Shown here one piece after another: positions 23,143 to 64,000 of a stretch of DNA of 64,000 nucleotides (the stretch's first letter is position 1; each line of letters starts with the position of its first letter). A model generated the notes under the pieces. It was not told the DNA's origin. It saw nothing but the letters and a program-made list of their open reading frames with translations, and did not search any database. Origin of the DNA: Candidatus Moraniibacteriota bacterium (lineage in GTDB: Bacteria; Patescibacteriota; Minisyncoccia; Moranbacterales; UBA1568). The DNA is taken from NCBI GenBank assembly GCA_903859375.1, contig CAIOMK010000030.1, forward strand, positions 5,238-69,237, given 5' to 3'. The translations under genes were made by a program, and so were the position numbers.

Positions 23143-23166
23143 CTTGTCCCAATTTTACGAAACGCT

Positions 23167-24120: not shown

Positions 24121-24121
24121 T

Positions 24122-25237
24122 ATGAGGATACTTTTGATTTCACGAGCCTTCCCACCCGTTATCGGAGGTATCGAAAACCACAACCGAGATCTGGCTCTCT
24201 GGCTCGCGAAAAAAACCGACTGCACGCTTATCGCGAACCATCGCGGAAAAAGTTTTCTCCCGTTGTTTCTTCCATACGCCTTTATCAAGGCATTGTTTCT
24301 GATGCGTACACACGATGTACTCCTTCTTGGTGACGGCGTCCTTGCCCCGCTTGCGGCAGCGGTATCCCTGATCTATCCGCACAGGAAAACCGCCTGCGTG
24401 GTACATGGGCTCGATATCGCGTTCGGTACGAAACAGGGATTCTTATCGCGCGTCTACAAATCCGTAAACCTCCCGTCATTGCGCCGTCTCGATCGCATCT
24501 TCGCCGTTTCCGAGCATACCAGTCACGTTGCAATCGATGCCGGAGTGGATCCCGAACGCATCACGATTATACAGAACGGGATCGATCCGTTGGAATTGGT
24601 CGTCCCTCGAGATCGGGCCGCCCTCGATACTCTGCTCGGTGTCGAAACCGCACACCAGTTCGTTATCGTACGCATCGGCCGATATGTGAAACACAAAGGT
24701 GTCGAGTGGTTCATCAGGAATGTGGTACCCAGACTTTCCGATGATGTCCTCTTCGTCGCCGCGGGCGGTGTCGTCGCCGGAAAGACCGCCGGTGATGACG
24801 ATTACTTCCCCGCGTGCGAACAGGCAGTCCGAGATCTCGCCCTCGAAGGGAAAGTGAAGCTCCTCACGAATCTTCCCCGCGCAGACATCCTGACGCTGCT
24901 CAATTCATCCGACCTTGCCGTCTCACCGAATATTCCCGTTCCCGGAACGATGGAAGGATTCGGGATCAACGTCATCGAAGCGAACAGTTGCGGACTCCCT
25001 GTCATCGCGTCCGATCTCGAAGGACTTTCCGAAGCGGTCCACGACGGTGAAAACGGACGACTCGTACGTCCTTCTGATGCCGATGCGTATGTCGAGGCCA
25101 TCCGTCTGTATTCGGATGATCGACGACAACTCAAAATCGACGGCGAAAAAGCGGCTGCGTTCGTTTCATCCCATTTCCTCTGGGACACGCTTTCCGATCG
25201 ATACAAAGATGTCCTCGAAGCGGAACTCACCCGTTAG
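24122..25237 (+). CDS. GT4-family glycosyltransferase
   Basis: MEGFGINVIEANSCGLPVIASD motif. Starts 2 nt after the upstream stop. Confidence 0.7.
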   Translation: MRILLISRAFPPVIGGIENHNRDLALWLAKKTDCTLIANHRGKSFLPLFLPYAFIKALFLMRTHDVLLLGDGVLAPLAAAVSLIYPHRKTACVVHGLDIAFGTKQGFLSRVYKSVNLPSLRRLDRIFAVSEHTSHVAIDAGVDPERITIIQNGIDPLELVVPRDRAALDTLLGVETAHQFVIVRIGRYVKHKGVEWFIRNVVPRLSDDVLFVAAGGVVAGKTAGDDDYFPACEQAVRDLALEGKVKLLTNLPRADILTLLNSSDLAVSPNIPVPGTMEGFGINVIEANSCGLPVIASDLEGLSEAVHDGENGRLVRPSDADAYVEAIRLYSDDRRQLKIDGEKAAAFVSSHFLWDTLSDRYKDVLEAELTR

Positions 25238-25285
25238 CATATCCGTTTTTTTGGATTTCTTCGTTTCGTCGGGTATACTGTCCAT

Positions 25286-38405: not shown

Positions 38406-38414
38406 ATGTTTTCA

Positions 38415-40073: not shown

Positions 40074-40076
40074 TTC

Positions 40077-41729: not shown

Positions 41730-41741
41730 ATCTTCGAACGT

Positions 41742-52806: not shown

Positions 52807-54486
52807 ATGACTCATCGTATGAAACATATCGCGAGATGGGGAATAGGCATGCTTTTCCTCCTGACCTTGGCAGGCGCGTTTTCGCCGTTTCCGAAACGGA
52901 TACTCGATACGGCCGAATGGGCGTGGATACCGGACAGGGTCGACATCCCGTCCCAATCCGCATCTCTGCTGCACCCATCCTCTCCTCTTCCGGCCCGTTA
53001 CGAAACGACCGAACTCGCGATATTCAATGACGGAAGCACGGTCACGCCGCCATTCGATATGCCGACCATCGTCCAACCGGTGTTCCCCGACCGGACCTGC
53101 GACATCTCCTCATATGGCTCCGTCGATGGAGGAATCGTCAAGAATACCAAGGCGATCGACGATGCCATCTCCGATTGTGCAAAGCAAGGCGGCGGTCATG
53201 TCGTGATTCCGAAAGGAACCTGGCTTACCGGAGCGGTGCATCTACAGGACAATATCGACCTTCATTTGGAACCGGACGCTTCACTCGTGTTCAGCCCCGA
53301 TCCGAACGACTATCTCCCCGTCGTACTTTCGCGATATGAAGGCATCGACGTCTACAATTACTCCCCGCTCGTCTATGCATACGGGAAGCAGAACATCGCC
53401 ATCACCGGCAAAGGGAAACTGGTCGGCAACGGAAAAAATTGGGAAGGCCTCGGTGACCTGGGTGTCACACACGATCTGTATGCCATGGGAGCCTCGGGTG
53501 TCCCGGTCCCGGAGCGCGTCTTCGGATCGACCGAAAAAATGCTTCGACCCTCGTTCGTCGAATTCCTGAACAGCCGATATATCCTGCTCGAGGATTTCTC
53601 CATCGACGGCGGTCCGATGTGGACGCTGCATCCGACTTATAGCCGGGATATCGTCGTCCGGAACGTTTCCGTCATCACGGACGGTCAGAACAACGACGGT
53701 CTGGACATAGATTCCTCACAGAACGTGCTCGTCGAAAATTCACTTTTCAACACGAATGACGATGCCATTGCGATCAAATCCGGCAAGGCGCAGGACGGTT
53801 TGAAAGTCGGTATTCCCACGGAAAATGTCATCATCCGGAACAATGTCGTCGAAGGCGGTCATGGTGGGATAGCTATCGGAAGCGAAATCGCCGGAGGGGT
53901 ACACAATGTGTTCGGTTACGATTGCACCATGCGCGGCATCCAATATGGCATCAGGTTGAAGGCGCTTGCGACTGAGCAGGTCTCAGCAAGCGACCTGTGG
54001 TTCCGCAATATCATCGCGGACAAAGTCTTGTTCGACACTATACAGATGACCATGCACTACGGTTCTGATCAGGCGGAGGGCGAACCGACAGGAGTACCCG
54101 TTTTCAAAAATATATACTTTTCCGGCATTACGAGTCCCCGAACCCGCGGGTCGATAGAGCTCGACGCGCTCGAGAGCAGCCCGATACAAAACGTGACGAT
54201 CGAGAACACGGATATCACGGCCGGAACCGGTGCGACCATGAATAACGTTATCGACATAACCCTGAAATCCGTTTCTATAAAACCAAAATACGAACCATTG
54301 TTCACCATCACGAACGGTCGCAACGTGTTCATCGATCCGCTGCCATGCACCGCCCCGATGAAGATATGTGCCACAATCGACGGTGCCCTGACGGAAAGTG
54401 TCTCATTGAAACCGAAAACCGGGTCCCTGCCACAGAAAAAAATCCGGATAGGCGCCGACGTCCCGGACGGACAGGTAACCTACTGA
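52807..54486 (+). CDS. secreted glycoside hydrolase family 28-like (right-handed beta-helix; polygalacturonase/rhamnogalacturonase-type)
   Basis: Start at the ATG at 52807 (MTHRMKHIARWGIGMLFLLTLAGA, signal-like). Four GH28 signature segments: QNNDGLDID (NTD-like), NTNDDAIAIKSG (DD), GGHGGIAIGSE (GHG) and GIRLKA (RIK-like). Confidence 0.65.
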   Translation: MTHRMKHIARWGIGMLFLLTLAGAFSPFPKRILDTAEWAWIPDRVDIPSQSASLLHPSSPLPARYETTELAIFNDGSTVTPPFDMPTIVQPVFPDRTCDISSYGSVDGGIVKNTKAIDDAISDCAKQGGGHVVIPKGTWLTGAVHLQDNIDLHLEPDASLVFSPDPNDYLPVVLSRYEGIDVYNYSPLVYAYGKQNIAITGKGKLVGNGKNWEGLGDLGVTHDLYAMGASGVPVPERVFGSTEKMLRPSFVEFLNSRYILLEDFSIDGGPMWTLHPTYSRDIVVRNVSVITDGQNNDGLDIDSSQNVLVENSLFNTNDDAIAIKSGKAQDGLKVGIPTENVIIRNNVVEGGHGGIAIGSEIAGGVHNVFGYDCTMRGIQYGIRLKALATEQVSASDLWFRNIIADKVLFDTIQMTMHYGSDQAEGEPTGVPVFKNIYFSGITSPRTRGSIELDALESSPIQNVTIENTDITAGTGATMNNVIDITLKSVSIKPKYEPLFTITNGRNVFIDPLPCTAPMKICATIDGALTESVSLKPKTGSLPQKKIRIGADVPDGQVTY

Positions 54487-54517: not shown

Positions 54518-55741
54518 ATGAAAAGTCTTATTCCGTACAAAAGACAGGCGGCCTTTGTCGCACTCATCGTTTTCGCCTTCGTGGTCTGGATCGCCGTCAT
54601 CGTGCTCGGTGACAAGAGTTATGTCGACGAAGGGACGCACGCACGGCAGATCCAACGGTTTTTCAAGGGCAACTATTCGATGCTGGACGACCTGACCAAT
54701 ATCCCCGGTTATCACGTGACCGTGGCAACCATCGAAAAAATAGTTCATCCGAACGAGAAGTATCCCCCGCTTGCGGAATCCAGATCGGTCAGTCTCGCCT
54801 TGTCAGCCACCTCTCTGCTGTTGTTTTATCTCATCTCCAAAAAAATCGGCATAGGCGATCCGAAAATGCGGACCCTTCAATACGCATTTTTTCCGATAAC
54901 ATTTCTCTATTTCCCCCTCGTCTACACGGACATATTCTCACTCGCGTTGCTACTTGCCGCGTTCCTTCCGATCCTCTACCGCAAATACACGCTTTCCGCG
55001 GTCATATCGCTTCTCTGTCTTGCGGTCAGACAGGATGCCATCGTCTGGGTCGGTTTTTTCTGGCTGTTCGCCTTTGTCTCGGAATACGGATTCGTTCTCT
55101 CCATTCGGAATATTTCCCGCCATTTCAGGAACACGATCGGCTACGTGGCGGTATTGATCCTCTTTCTGTCCTTTGTCCTGTTCAACGGTGGCATAGCGAT
55201 CGGTGACAAGGAAAGTCACGTGGTCGGACTGTACTCGGGTGGCATATATTTCTTTTTGGCAACGGTCGGATTCCTGTTCCTTCCCACCCTCGTCACCTTT
55301 TTCAAAACCGCCGATTGGAACCGACTGAAAGGATATCTCACATACATATTGCCTATCGGTACCGTCCTAGGCTTGTCGTTCGTTCTATTTCCTCCGGCGT
55401 TACACAAGTACAATCTCGACGCCCACTTCATACGCAACCTCGTGTTGGAGCAGGCATATACACGATATTGGTGGCTTTATGCCGTTTCGATCGTCCTCGG
55501 TTTTTCGGCGATATACGTCATGAAAATTCAGGGGCGCTTCATCGCGCTTCTCCCGATCATCGTCCTCAGCCTGATACCGTCATTCCTGATCGAACAGCGA
55601 TATTTCATCGTTCCGCTCGTTTTTCTCCTGCTGTTCAGGACCGAATCCACAAAGCATACCGAGCGGGCCCTCACCGTCTTTTTTCTCTCCCTGTCGCTCT
55701 CACTGGTATACATGTTGCTTCGGATGGACTTGTTCTTCTAG
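54518..55741 (+). CDS. DIE2/ALG10-family-like GT-C glycosyltransferase (lipid-linked alpha-1,2-glucosyltransferase homolog)
   Basis: 407 aa, about 10-12 TM helices. First-loop motif YVDEGTHARQIQRFFKGNYS...LTNIPGYH parallels the eukaryotic Alg10 Y-x-DE-x-F-H-x-x-Q-A-Q...G...TTPPGLY block. Confidence 0.5.
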   Translation: MKSLIPYKRQAAFVALIVFAFVVWIAVIVLGDKSYVDEGTHARQIQRFFKGNYSMLDDLTNIPGYHVTVATIEKIVHPNEKYPPLAESRSVSLALSATSLLLFYLISKKIGIGDPKMRTLQYAFFPITFLYFPLVYTDIFSLALLLAAFLPILYRKYTLSAVISLLCLAVRQDAIVWVGFFWLFAFVSEYGFVLSIRNISRHFRNTIGYVAVLILFLSFVLFNGGIAIGDKESHVVGLYSGGIYFFLATVGFLFLPTLVTFFKTADWNRLKGYLTYILPIGTVLGLSFVLFPPALHKYNLDAHFIRNLVLEQAYTRYWWLYAVSIVLGFSAIYVMKIQGRFIALLPIIVLSLIPSFLIEQRYFIVPLVFLLLFRTESTKHTERALTVFFLSLSLSLVYMLLRMDLFF

Positions 55742-56685
55742 TCTCCGGAGGTCATCCGGCTTTTCAGATACATCGGAAGGGCCGTGAAGCTGACGAACAT
55801 CTGCACGATCCTGATGACGATAGATACCGCTATCACCGCCGAAGCGTCGACACCGAAATATCCGAAGAATGTCACGTACGCCCATTCCTGGACGCCGATA
55901 TTGTTGATGCTTATTGGGGCTGCCGAGACGATGCTGATGAGGAATATGACGGACAGGTAATCGAGTATGCCCACGTGGATACCGAGCGCCTGGAACATGA
56001 CGTAGTTCTGCAGAGCCAGACCGACCAGACTGAACGATACCGACAGAATCATCGCGCGTGCGAATACCCCCTTGTGTTCGTAGTATTCGTGCAGTGCGGA
56101 CAGGAATTCCAGGATCTTTTTCGGAATATGTCGCGAAAAACGATCCCAGAACGAGAACTTCATCACGTAGCCGAGGCTCGCGACCCCGATCAGACACAAC
56201 AGTATGCCGATCGTGATATACGAAAGCACGGCGTGTCCGATCACGGTGCGCCAATTGAAAATCGCAAAGAGTACAGAGAGAACCATCGCTCCGATCAATC
56301 CCGTCAACCGATCCATGACCACACTCGCGGCGGCATCCGGGAAACGCCCGCTTCGTCTGCCGATCTGATATGCCCGGTAGGTGTCCCCTCCTATGAAGGA
56401 AGGGAAGAAATTATTGATGAACGATCCGGTCAGATACAAACCGAATGCTTCCGGAAGCGAAATTTCCAATCCTTTGAACTTGGCCAACACCCGCCATTTG
56501 TAGGCGGAAAGAGTCATACCGCAAAGCAACACCGCCACATAGAGTGCGATGTGACCGATCGACAGTCGGGACAGGTACGTTCCGACCTCGGTCCACTCCA
56601 CGCGCAAGACGAGCAGATACAGGAGGATCGCGCTGACGATCAGTTTGAACGAGAATGACAGTACTTTCTTCTTGTCCATAGTCAT
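55738..56685 (-). CDS. MprF-TM-like (lysylphosphatidylglycerol synthase TM region / UPF0104) flippase-like membrane protein
   Basis: 315 aa, 8 TM helices. Conserved FINNFFPSFIGGDTYRAYQIGRRSG block typical of the LPG_synthase_TM family. No C-terminal aminoacyl-transferase domain. Confidence 0.6.
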   Translation of the reverse strand: MTMDKKKVLSFSFKLIVSAILLYLLVLRVEWTEVGTYLSRLSIGHIALYVAVLLCGMTLSAYKWRVLAKFKGLEISLPEAFGLYLTGSFINNFFPSFIGGDTYRAYQIGRRSGRFPDAAASVVMDRLTGLIGAMVLSVLFAIFNWRTVIGHAVLSYITIGILLCLIGVASLGYVMKFSFWDRFSRHIPKKILEFLSALHEYYEHKGVFARAMILSVSFSLVGLALQNYVMFQALGIHVGILDYLSVIFLISIVSAAPISINNIGVQEWAYVTFFGYFGVDASAVIAVSIVIRIVQMFVSFTALPMYLKSRMTSGD

Positions 56686-58601
56686 GATGCGACTGAGGCG
56701 TTATGCGAATCATCGTCGAAAAAAACGAGGAACCACTGCTCCAACATGATGAGCGTCCAGAGTTGCTGCGCGTGACTGACGCCCGTCTTACAGTGCTCGT
56801 CGAGCAACCGTTTCACTTCTTCCCTACGGAAGATATTCCGACTCATGGCGACGTCCGACAGCAGCAGATCATAGGCATACGTCTTGAGTTCCCCACGCAA
56901 CCACACATCGACCGGCACACCGAATCCCATCTTCTTCCGATACAGGATATTTTTCGGAATGATCTCTTCCAGTGCTTTCTTGAGTATGTGTTTTTTGTCG
57001 TTCGAGCCATTGATTTTGAGATCGTTCGGTATCTTCGCCGTCAATTCGAGGAATTCATGATCCAAGAACGGACTGCGCGATTCCAACGAGACGGCCATCG
57101 TGTCTATATCCGTCTTCGCCATCAGATCATCCGGCAAGTACGTCATGAAATCGGCATAGAGCATCTGGTCGAGCGGATCCTCGGAACCGGACTGGGTGAA
57201 ATGTCTCGAAACGTTGAGGTATGAATCCTTGTGTGCCATTTTCTCCAGGAAACCGTCTGTATACATCCGTTCTTTGGCGTCATTCGAAAAGATGCAGATA
57301 TAATTCACGTACCGATACGCGTACGGTTCGGCCATCGTTTTTGCGAAGCGGTAGGCGCGGTCAAAAAACGTGTTCCGTATAATACCGGAAACAATCCATA
57401 ATATCGGCTTCACCACGAAGCGGTTCAGTATCCGCAGGCTCTCATACCGGAGGGAGAATTTCATGATGGCATGACGCTGGTACCCCGCGAAGTTCTCGTC
57501 CCCACCGTCCCCGTTGAGCGCGACGGTCACGAAATCACGCGTCATCTTGCTCACATAATACGTCGGCAAAGCGCTCTTGTCCGCATACGGTTCCTCGAAA
57601 TGATGCGCAAGGAGCGGCACCATCCCTATGGCATCGGATTTGACGATGAATTCCTTGTGATCCGTACCGAACAGTTCCGAGATCTGCTTGGCGTAAGCGA
57701 GCTCGTTGTATTTTTCTTCCTCGAACCCGATGGTGTAAGTCTTGACCGGAGTGTCACTGAGTTTCGTCATCAGCGCGACGACCGCACTCGAATCGATACC
57801 GCCGGAAAGGAACGCACCCACCGGCACATCTGAAATCATACGGAGGCGGACAGATTCCTCCAATTTTTCCAGGATGCGTTTCTTCCACTCGTCCTCCGAC
57901 AAGTCGAGTTTTTCGGAATAATCCAGTTTCCAATACCGTTCATTCTCGACCTTTTTCGTTTTCAGGTCGATGAACAGAAAATGTGCCGGTTCGAGCTTCC
58001 TGATATCTTTGAAACCGGTCAAAGGGGCCGGACAGTACTGGAGCGTCAGATAATGATGTATCGCCTCGTAGTCGGGAGCCTTCTCGTACTCCGGCTGTGT
58101 CAGGATCGACTTCAGCTCGGACGCGAACATGAACACGTCGTCGTCGATATAATACTTGAACGGTTTCTTGCCGACCCGGTCCCGTGCGCAGAAAATGGTC
58201 CGGTCGTGCTCGTCGTAGATCGCGAACGCAAACATGCCACGGAGATGTCGCAGGCATTTTTTCCCGTATTTGTAGTACAGCGCCAAGATGACTTCCGTAT
58301 CGGATTTCGAAGCGAACGAATACCCCTCTTTCTCGAGCATCTCACGCTTCTCCCGAAAATTGTAGATTTCGCCGTTGAAGACGATCTTGTACCGACTAAG
58401 ATACCCCATCGGCTGGTGTCCGAGAGGCGAAAGGTCGATAATCGAGAGTCTCCTATGCCCGAGTCCGACTTTCCGGTCGGGTGAGACATAGACACCGGTG
58501 TCATCAGGTCCCCGATGCGTGATGGCATCGTTCATCTTTTTGACGTCTTTCGCGGTGACTTCGCCGTCTTTGAGAAATATCTTACCGGTGATTCCACACA
58601 T
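56682..58601 (-). CDS. asnB: asparagine synthase (glutamine-hydrolysing)-family amidotransferase
   Basis: 639 aa. N-terminal MCGITG (class II GATase nucleophile Cys2) and PP-loop AFLSGGIDSS. 4-nt overlap with the downstream gene. Confidence 0.85.
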   Translation of the reverse strand: MCGITGKIFLKDGEVTAKDVKKMNDAITHRGPDDTGVYVSPDRKVGLGHRRLSIIDLSPLGHQPMGYLSRYKIVFNGEIYNFREKREMLEKEGYSFASKSDTEVILALYYKYGKKCLRHLRGMFAFAIYDEHDRTIFCARDRVGKKPFKYYIDDDVFMFASELKSILTQPEYEKAPDYEAIHHYLTLQYCPAPLTGFKDIRKLEPAHFLFIDLKTKKVENERYWKLDYSEKLDLSEDEWKKRILEKLEESVRLRMISDVPVGAFLSGGIDSSAVVALMTKLSDTPVKTYTIGFEEEKYNELAYAKQISELFGTDHKEFIVKSDAIGMVPLLAHHFEEPYADKSALPTYYVSKMTRDFVTVALNGDGGDENFAGYQRHAIMKFSLRYESLRILNRFVVKPILWIVSGIIRNTFFDRAYRFAKTMAEPYAYRYVNYICIFSNDAKERMYTDGFLEKMAHKDSYLNVSRHFTQSGSEDPLDQMLYADFMTYLPDDLMAKTDIDTMAVSLESRSPFLDHEFLELTAKIPNDLKINGSNDKKHILKKALEEIIPKNILYRKKMGFGVPVDVWLRGELKTYAYDLLLSDVAMSRNIFRREEVKRLLDEHCKTGVSHAQQLWTLIMLEQWFLVFFDDDSHNASVAS

Positions 58602-58671
58602 ACGATGTTATCAATGATATATAACCAGACCGAGACGGCCACACGGCCTGCCGTACACCCGCATGATGCTC

Positions 58672-59616
58672 TTATTCGACGTTCCTTCTGCGTACGACAT
58701 ACATCGGACGACCTATGACCTCCTTATGGATATTCGCGACATAGATTGCCAACAACCCGATGGACATGAGCAGTATACCGACCAGAAACAGCAACAGTAT
58801 CGCGAGATTCTCGGAATCGGAAAAGGTCGACGCGAACTCCGAACGAAAAAAGTATTTTCCCAGGAAGATATACAGCCCGGAAGCACCCGCGAAGAGCGTT
58901 ATGAATATGCCGAGAAAACCAGCGAGTTTGAGAGGCATCAGGCTCAGAGATATGAAACTGTCGATTGCGAGCCGGAACAGCCGGATGAAACTGTAGCTGG
59001 CCGTGCCGAACAGACGTTCGTTGGCGTCAAAATGGATGAAATCCCGTCGGAACCCGAGCCAATCGATGAGCGCCCTCGTCATACGGCTCTTTTCCGTGAA
59101 CCGGTTGAACTCGTTCACGACGGCCTTGTCGATGAGTCTGAAGTCGGTCGCATTCGGGACGACGTGCACCTCGGCGATCCTGTTGATGATATGATAGAAC
59201 AGCTTCGATCCCATCTTCTTGATCAGTCCCTCACTACGGTTCTTGTTGCGAACCCCGATGACGACGTCGAACCCGCTCTCCCACCGTCGTATGAATTCCG
59301 GTATGAGTCCGACCGGATGCTGGAGGTCTGCATCAATCATGATACAGGCGTCGGCCGTCGATGCGTTGATACCCGCGGTGGTCGCGACCTCTTTCCCGAA
59401 ATTCCTCGAAAAATCGATATACCGGACCGCCGTGTCGACGGTGGCCAGCTTCATTATTTCGCCGATCGTGTCGTCGGTACTCCCATCGTTCACGAACAGG
59501 ATCTGAAACGAATACGTGCCCGAAAACGGCGCGGACACTTCTTTGAGCGCGTCATACACCGGTCGGATGTTCTTCTCCTCGTTACAGGCGGGAATGATGA
59601 TGAGGATCGATTTCAT
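58672..59616 (-). CDS. polyprenyl-phosphate glycosyltransferase (GT2; Dpm1/ArnC/GtrB-like), second copy
   Basis: IIIPACNEE, FVNDGSTDDT, IMIDADLQH (DxD) and two C-terminal TM helices. Confidence 0.75.
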   Translation of the reverse strand: MKSILIIIPACNEEKNIRPVYDALKEVSAPFSGTYSFQILFVNDGSTDDTIGEIMKLATVDTAVRYIDFSRNFGKEVATTAGINASTADACIMIDADLQHPVGLIPEFIRRWESGFDVVIGVRNKNRSEGLIKKMGSKLFYHIINRIAEVHVVPNATDFRLIDKAVVNEFNRFTEKSRMTRALIDWLGFRRDFIHFDANERLFGTASYSFIRLFRLAIDSFISLSLMPLKLAGFLGIFITLFAGASGLYIFLGKYFFRSEFASTFSDSENLAILLLFLVGILLMSIGLLAIYVANIHKEVIGRPMYVVRRRNVE

Positions 59617-59721
59617 TGGGTTTCACGGTCATATTTCAAGCCGATCCGACATGACATTCACATGCAGAGTATACCATGAAACGGCACGCCGAGAGCATAC
59701 CGAAGCGAAGTCGCCCGTTCC

Positions 59722-60678
59722 TTATGGGCCGTCCATCCCGTAGGTCTTTTTCTCACGGAAGAAGAACGGCGCACCGACGAGACTGACGAGAATCTGTATG
59801 AAACGGACGAGCAACGCGACGGCGAGCGCCGACTCCGGCCGGATGCCAATGAGCGGAAAGAACGTATAGTATGCCCATTCCTTGAATCCGATGTTGTTGA
59901 TCGATACCGGCAGACTCGAGACGAGACTGATCAAGAATACCGTCGCGAGATACGGGAAGATCGGCACATGCTCACCGAGCGCATAAAAGAGCACGAGATT
60001 GAACAGACCGACCCCGACGATCGCGAATGCCGTCGCAAGCGCGAAGTTTTCACGCAGAAAAGTCCATTTCGCGTACCGGTCTATCTCCTTGAAAAATTTC
60101 CTCAACCGGCCGGGCAACCGATCGAACAGGCTTTGGCAACGCGGATGAGCATATCCGTATGTGAGCGCCACATTCACGAGCATGAACAAGAACAATCCGA
60201 TACCGAACCACGCAAAGAGCGGTTTCGCGAAAATATGATCGTAACCGAGAAAGCCGAACACGAAAAAAAGGATGATGGTCGTCCACAATCCGATGAAACG
60301 CGTGAACATGACCGTCGAGATTGCCGCAGGATAGCGTTTCTCCGACTTCCCGAGGATATAGCTCTGATACGCGTCACCGCCGAAAAATGACGGGAGAAAA
60401 TTGTTCAGGAAGAGTCCGGCGAAATAGTATTCCGTCGCATTTCGGAATGTCATGGAGAACTTCTTGAACTGCGCCGCACGCCACCACCGCTCGATACACA
60501 TGAACAAACCGATGACATACAGCAGGAGTGCGAGCAACAACAGTGGCAACGAGGCCTGCGCGACCTCGGACCATATCGGCGCCCAATCGACATTCCGGAC
60601 GAGAAGAGAAATCAATGTGACCGCCATGACGGTCTTGAACACGAAAAATAATTTTTTACTTAGGTTTGTTTTCTCCAC
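59722..60678 (-). CDS. MprF-TM-like flippase-like membrane protein, second copy
   Basis: 318 aa, 8 TM helices. FLNNFLPSFFGGDAYQSYILGKSE block, paralogous to the 55738-56685 gene. Confidence 0.55.
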   Translation of the reverse strand: MEKTNLSKKLFFVFKTVMAVTLISLLVRNVDWAPIWSEVAQASLPLLLLALLLYVIGLFMCIERWWRAAQFKKFSMTFRNATEYYFAGLFLNNFLPSFFGGDAYQSYILGKSEKRYPAAISTVMFTRFIGLWTTIILFFVFGFLGYDHIFAKPLFAWFGIGLFLFMLVNVALTYGYAHPRCQSLFDRLPGRLRKFFKEIDRYAKWTFLRENFALATAFAIVGVGLFNLVLFYALGEHVPIFPYLATVFLISLVSSLPVSINNIGFKEWAYYTFFPLIGIRPESALAVALLVRFIQILVSLVGAPFFFREKKTYGMDGP

Positions 60679-60699
60679 GATGTTCCGATTAGGACTCCC

Positions 60700-61842
60700 T
60701 TACGATATGCTCCGACGATATTCTTCCACGTATTTCTCCGCCACGGCGCGCCAGCTCATGGCCTCCGCGCGGACACGGCTCGCGTCACCCATACGGATCC
60801 GTAGTCCGGGGTCGGCGACGAGCGTACCGAGTTTCTCCGCGAGATCTTCGGCCGATCCTGTGTCCACGAAAAACCCGTTCTCCCCGTCTTTCACCAACTC
60901 CTGAGTCCCACCGGTGACCGTCGCCACGATAGGAAGTCCAGATGATATCGCTTCGAGCACGGTGTTGCTCATGCCTTCGTTGAGCGACGGGAGACAGAAG
61001 ATGTCCGCCCCACGATAGACGTCCGGCAAATCCCCATGTGTGATTAGACCGGCGAACTCCACGCGGGAGGTCACGTCGACCTCCTTCGCAAGCGCTTCCA
61101 GGTTCGGCCGTTCGCCACCTCCGCCGACGATGACCAATCGTGCCGTTTTCGGCAGAAGTGCCATGGCACGTATCATAAATCTGATACCTTTTCGCGGAGT
61201 GAGGCGGGATACGATCAATATGCGGACACTGTCGGCCACGGATTTCCGGCTACCCGGTGAAAATTCTTCCGTATCGACCCCGTTCGGTATGACTGGGATA
61301 TCCCGTTTCGAATCCGTCTTGTATGCGAGGTCACGCAGTCCCGTACTATTGGACACGACCCGTCGTGCCCGACGCCAGATGAGTCGGACGACCGGTCGGA
61401 GTACGGCATACAACGCGGTGAAGCGCTCGCTATATCCGGGCACATCCGCCCCACGGAGCGAGACGATATATGGCAGACCGTATTCGATCCGAAGCGCGAG
61501 TGCGAGGAATCCACACGGCACCGTGAAAAAGGCGTGTACAAGGTCGAAATTCCCTTCCGTCCGAATCAGTTTCCGTGAGAAAAAATATGCTTTCCACGAA
61601 TATGTGAGCAGGTTGTTGCGCGATTGATAGTGGAGATTCTTCGGATCCTTTCCGATAGGCAGACGATGGATGACGATGCTGTCTCCTATCGTCTCGCGGG
61701 AGTAGTCCCCGCCCACAGCCGATGTGACCAGATGGACTTCGAGGTCCGCCACCTTCGCGTACTCACGGAGAAGATACGCCGTGGCGTTTCCTGCCCCGCC
61801 GCCAAGCGGTGGATATTCATAATTTAAAAAGAGGATTTTCAT
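60700..61842 (-). CDS. GT4-family glycosyltransferase
   Basis: YPPLGGGAGNATAYL near the N-terminus. C-terminal NEGMSNTVLEAISSGLPIVAT (EX7E-like) motif. Confidence 0.75.
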   Translation of the reverse strand: MKILFLNYEYPPLGGGAGNATAYLLREYAKVADLEVHLVTSAVGGDYSRETIGDSIVIHRLPIGKDPKNLHYQSRNNLLTYSWKAYFFSRKLIRTEGNFDLVHAFFTVPCGFLALALRIEYGLPYIVSLRGADVPGYSERFTALYAVLRPVVRLIWRRARRVVSNSTGLRDLAYKTDSKRDIPVIPNGVDTEEFSPGSRKSVADSVRILIVSRLTPRKGIRFMIRAMALLPKTARLVIVGGGGERPNLEALAKEVDVTSRVEFAGLITHGDLPDVYRGADIFCLPSLNEGMSNTVLEAISSGLPIVATVTGGTQELVKDGENGFFVDTGSAEDLAEKLGTLVADPGLRIRMGDASRVRAEAMSWRAVAEKYVEEYRRSIS

Positions 61843-61843
61843 A

Positions 61844-63169
61844 TTATCTCCCTATCGAACGGTATTCGAAACCGAGTTCTTTCATTTTCTTCGGCTCATA
61901 CAACAGCCGACCATCGAAGACGAGCGGTTCGTTCAATGCCGTCCTGATACGATCGAAATCCGGTGTGCGGAATTCCTTCCATTCAGTGACGACGATCATG
62001 GCATCCGCGCCGGCAAGCGCCTCATATTTGTCTTCAAAATACGTGATGGACAGATTGTCACCGAAATATTCCGGTGTCCGTGCCATTTTCATGGCTTCCG
62101 GATCATGTGCACGGATAACCGCTCCCCGTTCGATCAGCATATTCACGAGCGTGATCGCGGGCGATTCGCGCATATCATCCGTACCGGCCTTGAAAGCCAA
62201 GCCCCATACACCGAATATCTTGCCGGTCAGGTCATCGCCCATTTCGTCCGTCACCATCGTGGCCAAGACGAGTTTCTGCTTTTCGTTGGTATCGAGTGTC
62301 TGCCTGAGCATCAGGGCATCGTATCCGAAATCGCCGGCCGTCTTCACGAGTGCCTTCACGTCCTTCGGGAAACATGACCCGCCAAATCCGGCACTCGCAT
62401 ACAGGAACGCATCACCGATACGAGGATCCGCACCCATGGCCTTGCGGACATTCTCATAGTCCGCACCCGTCTTCGAACAAATGTTTGCCAATTCGTTCGA
62501 TGCCGAAATCTTGACTGCGAGGAAACAGTTCGAGGCATATTTCACGATCTCGGCTGTCTTCGCGTCCATCGCAAAGAACCGACCTTCCCGACGCATGAAC
62601 GGTTCGTACAGTTCCTTCATCGTCTCGATTGCCTTCTGATCGTCGGAGCCGACGACGATACGGCTCGGTTCCAGGAAATCCTTCACTGCCGTTCCCTGTG
62701 CCAAAAACTCCGGATTGCTCACCACCTGAAATGGGATCTCGACACCGCGCGCTTTCAGTTGCTCGGCGATCGTGTTCGAGACCAATTCGGCGGTCCCGAC
62801 CGGCACTGTCGATTTGTCCACGACGATGATCTCGTGATCCATGCATCGCCCGAGGTCGGCAGCCACGCCCAACACATGGCTCAGATCGGCGCTTCCATCC
62901 TCATTCGGCGGAGTACCGACGGCGATGAATATGATATCGCTTGTACTGAGTGCAGCCTCGAAATCGGTCGTGAACGACAGTGTCTTGTTCTTCAGATTCC
63001 GCAAGACGAGCTCATCCAACCCCTTCTCATGAAGCGGGGCTTTTCCTGATTCGAATTTGGCGATCTTGGCCTGGTCCTTGTCGACGCATATGACCGTATT
63101 GCCCATTTCCGCGAAGCACGCGCCGGTCACCGAACCGACATATCCCGTCCCGATTACAGCAATATTCAT
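61844..63169 (-). CDS. ugd: UDP-glucose 6-dehydrogenase
   Basis: 441 aa. GTGYVGSV Rossmann motif and catalytic GFGGSCFPKD. 1-nt gap to the GT4 downstream. Confidence 0.85.
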   Translation of the reverse strand: MNIAVIGTGYVGSVTGACFAEMGNTVICVDKDQAKIAKFESGKAPLHEKGLDELVLRNLKNKTLSFTTDFEAALSTSDIIFIAVGTPPNEDGSADLSHVLGVAADLGRCMDHEIIVVDKSTVPVGTAELVSNTIAEQLKARGVEIPFQVVSNPEFLAQGTAVKDFLEPSRIVVGSDDQKAIETMKELYEPFMRREGRFFAMDAKTAEIVKYASNCFLAVKISASNELANICSKTGADYENVRKAMGADPRIGDAFLYASAGFGGSCFPKDVKALVKTAGDFGYDALMLRQTLDTNEKQKLVLATMVTDEMGDDLTGKIFGVWGLAFKAGTDDMRESPAITLVNMLIERGAVIRAHDPEAMKMARTPEYFGDNLSITYFEDKYEALAGADAMIVVTEWKEFRTPDFDRIRTALNEPLVFDGRLLYEPKKMKELGFEYRSIGR

Positions 63170-63182
63170 ATGTCAGTATGTC

Positions 63183-64000
63183 CTATGAAGTGATAACCTC
63201 CCTGATGTTGTAATTCATTTTCCCCTGAACCTTGTAGTAGTTCTTCAGCATGATATCGGCCAAGAGTCCGAACACGAACAACTGGATACCGACGAGCACG
63301 AAGAACACACCGACCAACGGCCAATTTCTGGTAGCGATCGCCTGGCCCTGATATTTCTCTATCGCCATCCATACCAGGACAAGGAAACCCGTTGCCGCAA
63401 AGACGATACCCGTACCGCCGAACAGATGCAACGGCCGGTTGGAATATTTGCGCCAGAACCAGATCGAGATCATGTCCACGAATCCCTTCATCCCCCGCTT
63501 CCAATTGTATTTCGTCACGCCCGACACCCGCGGATGATGACTCACTTTGACTTCGCCGACGCTGTACCCCTGCATTTCCAATATCGCCGGAATAAAACGG
63601 TGCATCTCGCCGAACAGATCCAGATCCTCGAAACAAATCCGCTTATATGCCTTCAGCGAACAACCGCTGTCATGGATCTTGTCCTGTATCAGGACCTTGC
63701 GCAAAAGATTGGCCGTGCGCGAAAAAATCTTTTTTCCGAGACTGTCCTTTCGCTTGAAGCGCCAACCGGTGACCACATCGAAGCCTTCATCCATTTTTTC
63801 CAACAAAAGTCCGATATCTGCCGGATCGTTCTGGAGATCGCCGTCCATCATGACGATTACTTCGCCTTTCGATTGCTTGATTCCGGCATCGAAGGAGGCC
63901 GTCTGACCGAAATTTTTCCGAAACCGTATCAGCGTAAGCGGGGAAAGACCGACACAATTTCCTACTGTGGCATCCGTAGAACCGTCATCCACGAAAATGA
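63183..64000 (-). CDS. polyprenyl-phosphate glycosyltransferase (GT2; Dpm1/ArnC/GtrB-like), third copy, N-terminus cut by window edge
   Basis: The reading frame stays open to position 64000 (..IFVDDGSTD). MMDGDLQND (DxD) and two C-terminal TM helices. Partial gene. Confidence 0.7.
   Translation of the reverse strand, partial: IFVDDGSTDATVGNCVGLSPLTLIRFRKNFGQTASFDAGIKQSKGEVIVMMDGDLQNDPADIGLLLEKMDEGFDVVTGWRFKRKDSLGKKIFSRTANLLRKVLIQDKIHDSGCSLKAYKRICFEDLDLFGEMHRFIPAILEMQGYSVGEVKVSHHPRVSGVTKYNWKRGMKGFVDMISIWFWRKYSNRPLHLFGGTGIVFAATGFLVLVWMAIEKYQGQAIATRNWPLVGVFFVLVGIQLFVFGLLADIMLKNYYKVQGKMNYNIREVITS

What the first reader, a model, noticed from the sequence alone, without database searches (positions are those of the whole stretch)
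55738..64000. Lipid-linked monosaccharide donor module: three Dpm1/ArnC/GtrB-like synthases plus two MprF-TM-like flippase-like proteins
Three GT2 proteins (23167-24120, 58672-59616, 63183-64000) have the GT-A DxD catalytic domain plus two C-terminal TM helices. These are diagnostic of polyprenyl-phosphate sugar synthases (Dpm1, ArnC, GtrB, Ppm1). Two LPG_synthase_TM-only proteins (55738-56685, 59722-60678) sit next to them. This domain is the flippase half of MprF, and stand-alone copies are proposed lipid flippases.

Together these are exactly the upstream steps GT-C enzymes require: make Pren-P-sugar in the cytoplasm, flip it, and hand it to ArnT/PMT-like transferases. Three synthases imply up to three different lipid-linked monosaccharide donors feeding about 11 GT-C enzymes. 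Such a complete, concentrated donor/flippase/transferase set appears unusual.
Basis: partly seen in the sequence, partly recalled or inferred. Interest (0 to 1): 0.6.

Follow-up and report, generated by a model that had tools for sequence, protein, structure and literature searches.

The report
Moranbacteria lipid-linked sugar assembly locus
A tiny-genome candidate-phylum bacterium (Moranbacteria) carries a large gene cluster for building surface sugars on membrane lipids.

Summary
The window is a Candidatus Moranbacteria (Patescibacteria) contig. It encodes three divergent GT2 enzymes, each with a DxD GT-A domain and a C-terminal two-helix membrane hairpin. Each matches a different solved polyprenyl-phosphate glycosyltransferase best: GtrB and ArnC end to end, DPMS more weakly. 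It also encodes two complete stand-alone PF03706 (MprF-TM, "PplT") proteins and 9 firm GT-C genes, plus 1-2 possible ones.

In 80 related loci, the constant partner of the PF03706 gene is the GT4 directly upstream (64/74 loci), not a GT2. The pair often sits in a recurrent cassette, ArnC-like GT2-Ugd-GT4-PF03706, usually next to GT-C genes. In at least 23 protein clusters, GT4 and PF03706 are fused into one ~695-aa protein, in the same slot where examined. This mirrors MprF, GpgSDF and HexSDF, which pair a synthase with a flippase for a modified lipid.

My best reading is that GT4 makes a lipid-linked glycan primer, the PF03706 protein translocates it, and the GT2s supply Pren-P-sugar donors to the GT-C array, as in LM/LAM synthesis. 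Whether PF03706 also flips Pren-P-sugars remains open. The general scheme was predicted for archaea in 2015. I found no description of this cassette or of the fusion in this slot.

The parts
63183..64000 (-). GT2C: ArnC-like polyprenyl-phosphate glycosyltransferase. It is the first gene of the cassette. Its N-terminal ~41 aa lie beyond the window end; the full gene is 313 aa.
   Evidence: Pfam PF00535 at 1.9e-19. ArnC 9BHC at 5.8e-31 over residues 2-269, including the TM hairpin. Two C-terminal TM helices. DGD-LQ motif. 313-aa gene on the longer identical contig. Orthologues are 63-92% identical in 41/80 loci.
61844..63169 (-). Ugd: UDP-glucose 6-dehydrogenase, which makes UDP-glucuronate.
   Evidence: Three UDPG_MGDP_dh domains at 8e-63, 7e-35 and 1e-32. 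TIGR03026 scores 437 bits, above its cutoff. The best equivalog is TuaD at 463 bits, below its cutoff. There is a 1-nt gap to the GT4 start.
60700..61842 (-). GT4 (GT-B fold) cytoplasmic glycosyltransferase, the conserved direct partner of the PF03706 gene.
   Evidence: Glycos_transf_1 at 8e-39 and Glyco_transf_4 at 5.5e-20. No convincing TM span (one isolated hydropathy peak). An orthologue (46-56% identity) sits immediately upstream of the PF03706 gene in 64/74 loci. It is 46% identical over its full length to the N-terminal half of the 694-aa GT4::PF03706 fusion P0121.
59722..60678 (-). LPG2: stand-alone PF03706 / MprF-TM-like (PplT) membrane protein. The ORF is 318 aa from a GTG start; the gene caller's version is 301 aa, starting at about 60627 (my estimate from the 301-aa length).
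   Evidence: PF03706 at 2.5e-34, covering 2-302 of 302. TIGR00374 at 1.9e-17. About 8 hydrophobic segments. Homologues at 55-70% identity occupy the GT2-Ugd-GT4-[PF03706] slot in other Moranbacteria.
58672..59616 (-). GT2B: GtrB-like polyprenyl-phosphate glycosyltransferase.
   Evidence: PF00535 at 3.5e-26. GtrB 5EKP at 6.7e-64 full length. NCBIfam PgfS scores 216 bits and ArnC 128 bits, both below their cutoffs. Two C-terminal TM helices. DAD-LQ motif.
56682..58601 (-). AsnB-like glutamine-dependent amidotransferase, a polysaccharide-locus type. I infer that it amidates a uronic-acid carboxylate.
   Evidence: Asn_synthase at 4e-99 and GATase_7 at 6.5e-43. TIGR03108 'XrtA/PEP-CTERM system amidotransferase' scores 604 bits full length, below its cutoff of 817. 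It starts with Met-Cys-Gly. A 4-nt overlap joins it to the LPG1 start. AsnB lies directly upstream of LPG1 in 4/74 related loci.
55738..56685 (-). LPG1: stand-alone PF03706 / MprF-TM-like (PplT) membrane protein. It is the type found next to GT4 in most Moranbacteria.
   Evidence: PF03706 at 4.5e-40. The AF2 model has pLDDT 84.5. Foldseek matches only MprF TM domains, with TM-score 0.65-0.69. 363 homologues at E <= 1e-5, the named ones from Moranbacteria or Parcubacteria. The central PF03706 gene in all 80 loci is LPG1-type.
54518..55741 (+). ALG10/DIE2-family GT-C glycosyltransferase, convergent with LPG1.
   Evidence: PF04922 at 3.1e-37, 129 bits against a cutoff of 27. About 10-12 hydrophobic segments. 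Present in 5/80 related loci.
52849..54486 (+). GH28 exo-polygalacturonosidase-like hydrolase embedded among the GT-C genes.
   Evidence: PF00295 at 1.2e-28. T. maritima exo-poly-alpha-D-galacturonosidase 3JUR at 5.9e-83. Present in 13/80 related loci.
49201..52787 (+). Two PMT_2/PMT-type GT-C genes: 49201-51045 and 51042-52787.
   Evidence: PMT_2 at 1.6e-11 and 7.6e-5; PMT at 7.6e-7. These are the most widely conserved GT-C types beside the cassette, in 49/80 and 44/80 loci.
47177..48982 (-). PMT-type GT-C gene.
   Evidence: PF02366 at 9.6e-11 and PF13231 at 2.2e-6.
45018..47165 (-). DUF6311-type polytopic membrane protein, a candidate GT-C. The gene caller gives 715 aa; the longest ORF runs to 47243.
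   Evidence: The precomputed Pfam hit is PF19830. There was no hit in the local Pfam scan. hhalign against the window's PMT_2 GT-Cs gives 89.7% probability, but only over the C-terminal TM region.
36792..45016 (-). Tandem array of five paralogous PMT_2-type GT-C genes: 36792-38405, 38415-40073, 40077-41729, 41742-43361 and 43358-45016.
   Evidence: PMT_2 at 2.4e-10 to 2.6e-5. Pairwise identity is 32-40%. Each has 8-11 hydrophobic segments.
34554..36020 (+). Wzx/MOP-family flippase candidate, an alternative translocase in the locus.
   Evidence: Polysacc_synt at 1.2e-26 and MurJ at 9.6e-13. It neighbours the cassette or GT-C block in 14/80 loci.
21592..27253 (+). Parallel module A: nucleotide-sugar 6-dehydrogenase (21592-22896), GT2A DPMS/AglJ-like synthase (23167-24120), GT4 (24122-25237) and an unassigned 655-aa polytopic protein (25286-27253).
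   Evidence: There is a 1-nt gap between GT2A and GT4. The block GT2A-GT4-unk is conserved in L070 and L080. The unknown protein has ~14 hydrophobic segments. Its profile does not match the window's PMT_2 GT-Cs (probability 3.9%).

Best explanation
This is the expanded version of a recurrent envelope-glycan assembly locus of Candidatus Moranbacteria.

Shown by homology:
- Seven co-directional, tightly spaced genes encode, in order: an ArnC-like GT2, Ugd, a GT4, a PF03706 protein, a GtrB-like GT2, an AsnB-like amidotransferase and a second PF03706 protein.
- Next to them lie nine or more GT-C transferases and a GH28 hydrolase.

Inferred mechanism:
1. The three GT2s load different sugars onto polyprenyl phosphate at the cytoplasmic face. 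With two nucleotide-sugar 6-dehydrogenases beside them, these probably include uronic acids.
2. The GT4 makes a separate lipid-linked glycan. By analogy with GpgS/HexS and PimA/B, this is most likely a glycosylated glycerolipid that serves as primer or acceptor.
3. The PF03706 protein, which is physically coupled to the GT4 and fused to it in some relatives, moves that product to the outer leaflet, as MprF does for its own product.
4. The GT-C array then elaborates it outside, using the Pren-P-sugar donors. The result would be a uronic-acid-containing lipoglycan or wall glycan, an LM/LAM-like division of labour. The AsnB-like enzyme would amidate carboxylates and the GH28 would trim.

Which protein flips the Pren-P-sugar donors is not settled. 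Candidates are the same promiscuous PF03706 proteins, the Wzx-like protein, or something outside the window.
For: GT2 identity as Pren-P sugar synthases: GtrB and ArnC match end to end including the TM hairpins, and DPMS matches over residues 1-257.

PF03706 identity: Pfam and NCBIfam matches plus the MprF-TM fold.

Organism and cassette: among 80 loci, all those with informative titles are Moranbacteria, Parcubacteria or Patescibacteria. The order GT2C-Ugd-GT4-PF03706 recurs and is usually followed by PMT_2 genes.

GT4-PF03706 coupling:
- A GT4 orthologue lies immediately upstream on the same strand in 64/74 loci.
- GT2C lies within 4.5 kb upstream in only 30/59 loci, against 55/59 for GT4.
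- A single-ORF GT4::PF03706 fusion was found in L080.
- At least 23 fusion clusters of ~690-718 aa exist.
- The fusion's halves are 46% identical to the window GT4 and 36% identical to LPG1.
- The fusion occupies the same slot, GT2-Ugd-[fusion]-PMT.

Precedents for a GT-B synthase plus a stand-alone PF03706 acting on glycerolipids: gpgSDF and hexSDF. GT-B::PplT fusions are widespread. The MprF TM domain scrambles PG, PE and PC in vitro.

Uronic-acid theme: Ugd and a second dehydrogenase each sit beside a TM-GT2. The GH28 resembles an exo-polygalacturonosidase. The AsnB-like gene is translationally coupled to LPG1.

A GT4 + Pren-P-sugar synthase + GT-C array is the known logic of PIM/LM/LAM synthesis (abstracts listed).
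Against: - No biochemical data exist for any protein here, so the lipid acceptor of the GT4 is unknown.
- GT4s also act on polyprenyl-linked acceptors. NCBIfam hits include PglH, PglJ and Agl16 at similar weak scores.
- The GlcNAc-PG synthase model scores only 53 bits, so the GT4 is not a GpgS orthologue.
- Flippase activity is unproven even for GpgF and HexF.
- Mirror-tree correlation of LPG1 with GT2C (r = 0.69) is as high as with GT4 (r = 0.63). Co-evolution therefore does not favour GT4.
- CPR bacteria generally lack glycerolipid synthesis (my own knowledge), so a glycerolipid acceptor would have to be scavenged.
- No GtrA/SMR-type flippase was found in the window. This leaves PF03706 as a natural candidate for the Pren-P-sugars too.
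- Archaeal AglD is a Dol-P-hexose GT2 fused to this same domain.
Confidence: 0.42

Rival explanations
1. The PF03706 proteins are the flippases for the Pren-P-monosaccharide donors made by the GT2s. This would be a classical three-component system with a PplT-type flippase in place of GtrA, SMR or MATE. The GT4 serves another step.
For: - The GT2C-Ugd-GT4-PF03706 cassette keeps a Pren-P-sugar synthase in the same gene block as PF03706 in about half of the loci.
- LPG2 is directly followed by GT2B in the window.
- In L085 the fusion overlaps the start of a 313-aa GT2.
- No GtrA/SMR-type flippase was found in the window.
- Archaeal AglD is a Dol-P-hexose GT2 fused to UPF0104, and archaeal neighbourhoods combine UPF0104, an AglD-like GT2 and a PMT/STT3-like GT-C.
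- Mirror-tree r(LPG1, GT2C) = 0.69.
- MprF-TM is a promiscuous scramblase and shares its hairpin motif with DedA proteins. From my own knowledge, the DedA family includes Und-P translocases.
Against: - GT4, not GT2, is the invariant neighbour (64/74 against 30/59).
- The fusion partner in this lineage is GT4.
- About half of the loci keep GT4-PF03706 with no TM-GT2 within 4.5 kb upstream.
- No PF03706 protein has been shown to move a polyprenyl lipid.
- A Wzx/MOP-type candidate exists in the locus. A MATE-type protein fills this role in a characterised three-component system.
Confidence: 0.2
2. Priming model, like archaeal AglJ followed by AglG/AglI. The TM-GT2 puts the first sugar on polyprenyl phosphate. 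The GT4 extends it, for example with GlcA from Ugd. PF03706 flips the Pren-P-oligosaccharide, and a GT-C transfers it.
For: - The conserved gene order GT2C-Ugd-GT4-PF03706 reads as a linear pathway.
- A second, non-homologous module repeats the pattern dehydrogenase-GT2A-GT4-polytopic protein, with a 1-nt GT2A/GT4 gap.
- The best NCBIfam hit of GT2A is AglJ. Ugd hits AglM at 385 bits. The GT4 hits Agl16, PglH and PglJ.
- A fusion of the last cytoplasmic enzyme to the flippase fits this model.
- LPG1 co-varies equally with GT2C and GT4.
Against: - Characterised ArnT/PMT-type GT-Cs use Pren-P-monosaccharide donors (my own knowledge).
- All NCBIfam equivalog hits are far below their cutoffs.
- Half of the loci lack GT2C next to GT4-PF03706.
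- There is no precedent in bacteria.
Confidence: 0.2
3. The PF03706 proteins are general phospholipid scramblases, like E. coli YbhN/PplT. They would be needed by a lipid-scavenging CPR cell to equilibrate imported lipids between leaflets. Their position in the glycan locus would be incidental.
For: PaMprF scrambles unmodified PG, PE and PC. E. coli YbhN is linked to bulk phospholipid enzymes. CPR bacteria depend on external lipids (my own knowledge).
Against: The same-strand adjacency to GT4 is conserved (64/74). Recurrent fusions to GT4 sit in the same slot. AsnB-LPG1 are translationally coupled. Both paralogue types sit in the same cassette slot.
Confidence: 0.08
4. The TM-bearing GT2s are not lipid-phosphate sugar synthases. 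They would instead be ordinary or processive polysaccharide GT2s, and the locus would make a conventional exopolysaccharide.
For: The window also holds Wzx, two Wzy_C proteins, WecG/TagA, several GT4s and a soluble GT2. Weak N-terminal hits to PgaC and NodC models exist.
Against: The alignments to GtrB and ArnC are full length and include the juxtamembrane region and TM hairpin; GT2A matches DPMS over residues 1-257 and AglJ over residues 4-299. The PgaC hits cover only the first ~100 residues. No BcsA-, HAS- or chitin-synthase-type chain was hit. The proteins are ~315 aa with only 2 TM helices.
Confidence: 0.03

Closest known systems
Three-component / multi-component transmembrane glycosylation systems (GtrB-GtrA-GtrV; CsbB-GtcA-YfhO; ArnC-ArnE/F-ArnT; the pentofuranose systems of Kelly et al. 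2024, PMC11127046)
   Same: GtrB/ArnC-type GT2 synthases sit next to GT-C transferases. Sugars are activated on polyprenyl phosphate inside and used outside.
   Different: No GtrA/SMR/MATE-type small flippase is adjacent. Instead there are PF03706 proteins whose fixed partner is a GT4. There are three synthases and at least 9 GT-Cs in one locus rather than one of each. Ugd, an AsnB-like gene and a GH28 are integrated.
gpgSDF (P. aeruginosa GlcN-PG; PMC12713373) and hexSDF (C. difficile aminohexosyl glycolipid; PMC10128005)
   Same: A cytoplasmic GT-B glycosyltransferase (GpgS is GT4) is encoded with a stand-alone MprF-TM-like protein. In both operons a modifying enzyme lies between synthase and flippase, as in GT2B-AsnB-LPG1 here.
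   Different: There is no deacetylase here; the modifier is an amidotransferase. The GT4 is not an orthologue of GpgS (53 bits against a cutoff of 480). The locus is attached to Pren-P-sugar synthases and a GT-C array, which those operons lack.
MprF (bifunctional aminoacyl-PG synthase and flippase/scramblase; 7DUW, 9J8S)
   Same: The fold matches the N-terminal TM domain (TM-score 0.65-0.69). In relatives, a synthase domain is fused to this TM domain.
   Different: There is no DUF2156/aminoacyl-PG synthase domain. The protein is ~315 aa with ~8 TM segments. phmmer finds no MprF chain, and Foldseek sequence identity is 12-15%. In the fusions the enzyme domain is N-terminal and is a glycosyltransferase.
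Archaeal AglD (GT2::UPF0104 fusion) and the UPF0104 + AglD-like GT2 + PMT/STT3-like neighbourhood (Makarova et al. 2015, PMC5898192)
   Same: The same three protein families are linked by genomic context.
   Different: That work concerns archaea, Dol-P and N-glycosylation, with the fusion partner being the GT2. Here the organism is a CPR bacterium, the fusion and adjacency partner is a GT4, and the GT-Cs are PMT_2- and ALG10-type.
Mycobacterial/corynebacterial PIM-LM-LAM pathway (PimA/PimB GT4s, Ppm1 GT2, and the GT-C array PimE/MptA-C/Emb/Aft)
   Same: The division of labour is the same. GT4s build a glycolipid on the cytoplasmic face, a GT2 makes polyprenyl-P-sugar, and many GT-Cs elongate outside (abstracts listed). 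PimA and PimB' are among the PDB hits of the GT4.
   Different: This is an analogy only. The PDB matches are weak (1e-13 to 1e-18). No inositol-lipid genes are present. The flippase for PIMs is unknown (my own knowledge), so no PF03706 role is established there.
Rhizobium RgtE/RgtA-D (dodecaprenyl-P-GalA synthase plus ArnT-like GalA transferases). This entry is from my own knowledge and was not tested here.
   Same: A lipid-phosphate uronic-acid donor is used by ArnT-like GT-Cs. That fits Ugd, the ArnC-like GT2 and the GH28 galacturonosidase-like gene.
   Different: No sequence comparison with RgtE was possible. The target there is LPS, which Moranbacteria are not expected to have.

Membership tests
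Polyprenyl-phosphate glycosyltransferases (GtrB/ArnC/DPMS type GT2) | GT-A catalytic domain with a DxD metal/nucleotide-sugar motif | tested here: met
   PF00535 at 1e-19 to 4e-26 for all three. Motifs are IDADGQ, IDADLQ and MDGDLQ.
Polyprenyl-phosphate glycosyltransferases (GtrB/ArnC/DPMS type GT2) | Full-length homology to a characterised member, extending through the juxtamembrane region and the C-terminal TM hairpin | tested here: met
   GT2B matches GtrB residues 4-308 vs 28-326 (6.7e-64). GT2C matches ArnC residues 2-269 vs 45-314 (5.8e-31). GT2A matches DPMS residues 1-257 vs 23-278 (2.7e-14) and AglJ residues 4-299. Each has two C-terminal TM helices. GT2A is the weakest case.
Polyprenyl-phosphate glycosyltransferases (GtrB/ArnC/DPMS type GT2) | Transfers a sugar from a nucleotide sugar to polyprenyl phosphate; identity of the sugar | not testable with these tools
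   All NCBIfam equivalog scores are below their cutoffs (PgfS 216/500, ArnC 128/529, AglJ 122/325). Sugar specificity therefore cannot be assigned.
PF03706 / UPF0104 / PplT (MprF flippase-domain family) | Sequence match above the curated threshold over the whole domain | tested here: met
   138.4 and 119.6 bits against a cutoff of 33.4, covering about 298-301 of 302 positions. TIGR00374 scores 84 and 64 bits against a cutoff of 43.
PF03706 / UPF0104 / PplT (MprF flippase-domain family) | MprF TM-domain fold with two helix-break-helix hairpins | tested here: met
   The AF2 model (pLDDT 84.5) matches 9J8S, 9J8Q, 9GOE and 7DUW with TM-score 0.65-0.69 and nothing else. Invariant NN..PS..GGD and P.S.NNIG.EW motifs sit at the breaks between helices 77-93/99-112 and 240-255/265-275.
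PF03706 / UPF0104 / PplT (MprF flippase-domain family) | Lipid translocation activity and substrate | not testable with these tools
   Activity has been shown in vitro only for PaMprF with glycerophospholipids. It is unproven for GpgF and HexF.
Bifunctional MprF | C-terminal aminoacyl-PG synthase domain (DUF2156) in the same protein or nearby | tested here: not met
   Both ORFs stop after the TM domain. No such domain was found in any scanned ORF of the window. NF033480 scores 28 bits against a cutoff of 600.
Classical three-component periplasmic glycosylation system | Pren-P-sugar synthase and GT-C transferase encoded together | tested here: met
   GT2B and GT2C lie within 1-8 kb of ALG10- and PMT_2-type genes. 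GT-C genes occur in 63/80 related loci.
Classical three-component periplasmic glycosylation system | Dedicated small GtrA/SMR-type (or MATE-type) flippase encoded with them | tested here: inconclusive
   No GtrA/SMR-like ORF was found in the window. A Wzx/MOP protein lies at 34554-36020. PF03706 proteins occupy the position, but their substrate is unknown.
gpgSDF/hexSDF-type glycolipid synthase-modifier-flippase operons | GT-B lipid glycosyltransferase adjacent to a stand-alone PF03706 gene | tested here: met
   GT4-LPG2 are 21 nt apart in the window. The arrangement holds in 64/74 related loci, and fusions exist.
gpgSDF/hexSDF-type glycolipid synthase-modifier-flippase operons | Polysaccharide-deacetylase-type modifier and orthology of the synthase to GpgS/HexS | tested here: not met
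   No deacetylase is present in the locus. The GlcNAc-PG synthase model scores 52.7 bits against a cutoff of 480. The modifier present is AsnB-like.
GT-C glycosyltransferases (PMT_2/ArnT-like; ALG10) | Pfam match above threshold and polytopic N-terminal membrane domain | tested here: met
   Six of eight PMT_2-type ORFs exceed the PMT_2 cutoff of 26.1 bits. 43358-45016 (24.9 bits) and 51042-52787 (23.4 bits) fall just below it, but both are clear paralogues of the others. ALG10 scores 129 bits. Each has 8-12 hydrophobic segments. DUF6311-like 45018-47165 and unk 25286-27253 are not established.

The most novel reading that the evidence does not exclude
The GT4::PF03706 proteins and their split versions in this window are an 'MprF for glycolipids'. 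On this reading they form a dedicated synthase-translocase couple that hands a lipid-linked glycan across the membrane to a large GT-C assembly line. Moranbacteria would then build an LM/LAM-like, uronic-acid-rich lipoglycan. If the substrate proved to be polyprenyl-phosphate-linked, PF03706 would be a new class of Pren-P-glycan flippase. That would give a tractable candidate family for flipping steps that remain unassigned elsewhere, such as PIM intermediates and Dol-P-sugars.
Probability: 0.25. Interest if true: 0.7.

Novelty: new variant of a known kind. Interest (0 to 1): 0.45.

Why it matters
Almost nothing is known experimentally about the cell envelope of Patescibacteria (CPR). These organisms live attached to other cells and cannot make their own lipids.

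This organism devotes roughly 49 kb of the window to lipid-linked glycan assembly. By comparison, a complete Moranbacteria genome in the search is 1.29 Mb. The core cassette recurs across the 80 related loci examined, so the product is probably central to their surface biology.

The recurrent GT4::PF03706 fusion is a clean comparative-genomic pointer to what stand-alone MprF-TM-like proteins do. It suggests they translocate the product of the adjacent lipid-glycosylating enzyme. It also gives a simple testable system, two or four genes expressible in E. coli, for a family whose flippase activity is unproven outside MprF itself.

Tried and rejected
- phmmer of LPG1 against PDB sequences found nothing, even at E <= 1. 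The link to MprF needed Pfam plus a structure model.
- phmmer of the ALG10-like protein against the PDB found nothing.
- NCBIfam on the GT-C genes gave only weak sub-threshold hits to ArnT and Agl23, so no acceptor could be assigned.
- Profile-profile comparison of the unassigned 655-aa membrane protein with the window's PMT_2 GT-Cs gave 3.9% probability. For the DUF6311-like protein it gave 89.7%, but only over C-terminal helices. I therefore do not count either as an established GT-C.
- The promoter/terminator scan of 54000-64000 found fewer promoter-like sites than shuffles did, and no terminator in the intergenic gaps. It does not define operon boundaries.
- Mirror-tree correlation across 31 loci did not separate GT4 from GT2C. 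Correlations with LPG1 were r = 0.63 for GT4, 0.69 for GT2C and 0.43 for Ugd.
- No GtrA/SMR-like flippase turned up in any scanned ORF of the window.
- Three literature searches for this cassette in CPR, Patescibacteria or Moranbacteria returned nothing relevant.
- HpnL (TIGR03476) was considered as a closer subfamily. Scores of 50 and 19 bits against a cutoff of 196 exclude membership, and its function is unknown anyway.
- I considered and rejected that the PF03706 ORFs are MprF fragments and that the GT2s are processive synthases (see the membership tests).

Full report
**1. What is in the sequence**

The region 55738-64000 is a block of seven co-directional minus-strand ORFs. The gaps between them run from -4 to 105 nt. 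In order they are:
- GT2C (63183 to beyond 64000)
- Ugd (61844-63169)
- GT4 (60700-61842)
- LPG2 (59722-60678)
- GT2B (58672-59616)
- an AsnB-like amidotransferase (56682-58601)
- LPG1 (55738-56685)

All sit at the stated coordinates. Pfam assigns Glycos_transf_2 to the three GT2s (1e-19 to 4e-26) and LPG_synthase_TM to the two membrane proteins (4.5e-40 and 2.5e-34, nearly full model length). GT2C is cut by the window end. A longer metagenomic contig carrying the identical LPG1 protein and the same gene order shows it as a 313-aa gene.

**2. The GT2s are GtrB/ArnC/DPMS-type enzymes**

Each has a DxD motif in the context (I/M)D(A/G)D(G/L)Q and two C-terminal hydrophobic helices. Against all PDB sequences:
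- GT2B aligns end to end with GtrB sll0501 (5EKP, 6.7e-64).
- GT2C aligns with ArnC (9BHC, 5.8e-31, through the TM hairpin).
- GT2A aligns with P. furiosus DPMS (5MLZ, 2.7e-14).

The NCBIfam best hits are PgfS, ArnC, AglJ and PpgS. All are polyprenyl/dolichyl-phosphate sugar synthases, and all score below their equivalog cutoffs. Matches to processive synthases such as PgaC and NodC cover only the first ~100 residues, and no such chain appears in the PDB searches. The three proteins are ~27% identical to one another. Sugar specificity cannot be read from sequence.

**3. The PF03706 proteins are complete stand-alone MprF-TM homologues**

They are 32% identical paralogues with about eight hydrophobic segments each. 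phmmer finds no PDB relative. An AlphaFold model of LPG1 built on 13 homologues (pLDDT 84.5, pTM 0.80) matches only the transmembrane domain of MprF (9J8S, 9J8Q, 9GOE, 7DUW; TM-score 0.65-0.69). The next hits are noise. Two invariant motifs, NN..PS..GGD and P.S.NNIG.EW, lie at helix-break-helix elements. This fits the double hairpin described for MprF. No aminoacyl-PG synthase domain occurs in any scanned ORF. Homologues are consistently ~310-aa proteins.

**4. Organism and conservation**

Named homologues, and the informatively titled records among the 80 loci retrieved from species-representative genomes, are Candidatus Moranbacteria/Moraniibacteriota, Parcubacteria group or Patescibacteria group, that is, CPR bacteria.

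I compared the ORFs of those loci with the window's proteins. A recurrent co-directional cassette emerged: ArnC-like GT2, then Ugd, then GT4, then PF03706, usually followed by PMT_2-type GT-C genes. The counts are:
- The GT4 orthologue (46-56% identity) lies immediately upstream of the PF03706 gene in 64 of 74 loci with enough sequence. AsnB takes that position in 4.
- Within 4.5 kb upstream, GT4 is present in 55/59 loci, Ugd in 32/59 and GT2C in 30/59.
- A GT-C gene is present in 63/80 loci.

All 80 central PF03706 genes are LPG1-type. LPG2-type homologues (55-70% identity) occupy the same GT2-Ugd-GT4-[PF03706]-PMT slot in other Moranbacteria. The window and its nearest relative L003 carry both types. 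Here a block of LPG2, GT2B and AsnB lies between GT4 and LPG1.

**5. A gene fusion**

In L080 the slot after Ugd holds a single 694-aa ORF with an N-terminal GT4 and a C-terminal PF03706 domain. At least 23 clusters (90% identity level) of such ~690-718-aa proteins exist. The named ones are from Moranbacteria or Parcubacteria. The N-terminal half is 46% identical over its full length to the window's GT4. The C-terminal half is 36% identical to LPG1. Two further contigs show the fusion in the order GT2 (311 aa)-Ugd-[fusion]-PMT. Together with the adjacency data, this is the strongest evidence on what the PF03706 protein works with: the GT4.

**6. What is known about this family**

- PF03706 is the flippase domain of MprF. 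PaMprF is a promiscuous scramblase of PG, PE, PC and aminoacyl-PG in vitro (PMC11980842).
- Stand-alone "PplT" proteins and fusions to GT-A and GT-B domains are widespread (bioRxiv 10.1101/2022.03.11.483950).
- Two operons pair a GT-B lipid glycosyltransferase with a stand-alone PF03706 protein and a deacetylase. They are gpgSDF, which makes GlcN-PG (PMC12713373), and hexSDF, which makes an aminohexosyl glycolipid (PMC10128005). Flipping has been shown in neither.
- Makarova et al. (PMC5898192) identified the C-terminal domain of archaeal AglD, a Dol-P-hexose GT2, as this domain. They also described a conserved neighbourhood of UPF0104, an AglD-like GT2 and a PMT/STT3-like protein, and predicted a flippase role in glycosylation.
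- Characterised three-component systems use GtrA/SMR- or MATE-type flippases (PMC11127046).

**7. Mechanism**

Established by homology: there are three Pren-P-sugar-synthase-type GT2s, a UDP-Glc dehydrogenase, and a second nucleotide-sugar dehydrogenase beside GT2A. There is a GT4 and two MprF-TM-type proteins. There is an AsnB-type amidotransferase with an N-terminal Cys. There are 8 PMT_2-type GT-Cs and one ALG10-type GT-C. A GH28 closely resembles an exo-poly-alpha-galacturonosidase (3JUR, 5.9e-83).

Inferred: each family does what its characterised relatives do.
- The GT2s make Pren-P-sugar donors.
- The GT4 makes a lipid-linked glycan on the inner face.
- The coupled PF03706 protein moves that product outward.
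- The GT-C array elaborates it outside.

This division of labour is the one known from PIM/LM/LAM synthesis. Ugd, the amidotransferase and the GH28 point to uronic acids or uronamides in the product.

I give this specific reading about 0.4. The broader statement that PF03706 handles the GT4 product rather than the GT2 monosaccharide donors gets about 0.6.

Two rivals remain live at about 0.2 each. The second is an AglJ-like priming model, in which the GT2 primes Pren-P, the GT4 extends, and PF03706 flips the Pren-P-oligosaccharide. The second is encouraged by a parallel module in the window: dehydrogenase, GT2A, GT4 and a polytopic protein at 21592-27253. A mirror-tree test did not discriminate: LPG1 against GT4 gave r = 0.63, and against GT2C r = 0.69.

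**8. Comparison and novelty**

[quoted passage not shown] It is a member of neither in the strict sense. No GtrA/SMR flippase and no deacetylase are present, and the GT4 is not a GpgS orthologue.

The concept is known, and the PF03706-glycosylation link was predicted in 2015. I found no description of three things: the recurrent GT2-Ugd-GT4-PF03706 cassette in CPR bacteria, the GT4::PF03706 fusion in that slot, or the coupling to a large GT-C array. I rate it a new variant of a known kind, with interest 0.45.

The 'unusual concentration' is real but lineage-typical. Related 20-kb loci usually carry up to about five GT-C-type genes. The window adds five tandem paralogues (32-40% identity).

Noticed in passing
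window 36792-45016 (-): Five tandem paralogous PMT_2-type GT-C genes of ~540-552 aa and 32-40% pairwise identity. This is a local expansion beyond what related Moranbacteria loci show.
   Followed up: partly
window 52849-54486 (+): A GH28 enzyme close to T. maritima exo-poly-alpha-D-galacturonosidase (3JUR, 5.9e-83) sits between GT-C genes. It recurs in 13/80 related loci. This hints that the glycan contains alpha-linked galacturonate-type residues. Alternatively, the organism may feed on pectin-like polymers.
   Followed up: partly
window 54518-55741 (+): A DIE2/ALG10-family protein in a CPR bacterium (Pfam 3.1e-37). The eukaryotic enzyme is the Dol-P-Glc alpha-1,2-glucosyltransferase. The gene is convergent with LPG1 and overlaps it by 4 nt. 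It occurs in 5/80 related loci. No PDB sequence relative was found.
   Followed up: partly
window 25286-27253 (+); also L067 14130-16181, L074 5276-7237, L080 17209-19149: A conserved 655-aa protein with ~14 hydrophobic segments and invariant motifs such as TDLGHH and IIGEH. It has no Pfam or NCBIfam match. It follows GT2A-GT4 in the position that PF03706 takes after GT2C-Ugd-GT4. Its profile does not match the window's PMT_2 GT-Cs.
   Followed up: partly
window 21592-25237 (+) and 60700-64000 (-): GT2A and GT2C, two of the three TM-bearing GT2s, each sit beside a nucleotide-sugar 6-dehydrogenase and a GT4. GT2A is next to a UDP-ManNAc-dehydrogenase-like enzyme, and GT2C is next to Ugd. This repeated pattern suggests uronic-acid chemistry in both modules.
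   Followed up: partly
window 6804-9357, 18612-20249, 32380-36020: The same window holds WecG/TagA-family, PGA_cap (CapA-like), two Wzy_C and one Wzx/MOP gene. At least one conventional Und-PP-dependent polymer pathway therefore coexists with the GT-C system.
   Followed up: no
window 7592-8263 (-), 29722-32009 (+): RNA-repair-type genes are interspersed in the glycan island: LigT-like 2',5' RNA ligase, a weak nucleotidyltransferase-domain ORF, and RtcB. RtcB keeps its place next to Wzx in several relatives (L065, L067, L070, L080).
   Followed up: no
L085 5262-5609; unnamed contig; L083 6526-7035; L082 5484-6670: In relatives the cassette is interrupted by small unrelated ORFs. These include a 23S rRNA intervening-sequence protein PF05635, a SemiSWEET-like 90-aa protein, NUDIX, a methyltransferase, NYN and Metallophos. 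The flanking order is kept.
   Followed up: no
window 56682-56685 and 58601: The AsnB-like gene starts Met-Cys-Gly (an intact glutaminase nucleophile). Its stop overlaps the LPG1 start by 4 nt, which suggests translational coupling of the amidotransferase and the PF03706 protein.
   Followed up: partly
L086 13960-17923 (= L080 6901-10864): In the fusion-bearing genome, a second stand-alone LPG1-type PF03706 gene follows two ~500-aa ORFs with no Pfam match. PF03706 paralogues therefore also pair with other, unknown partners.
   Followed up: no
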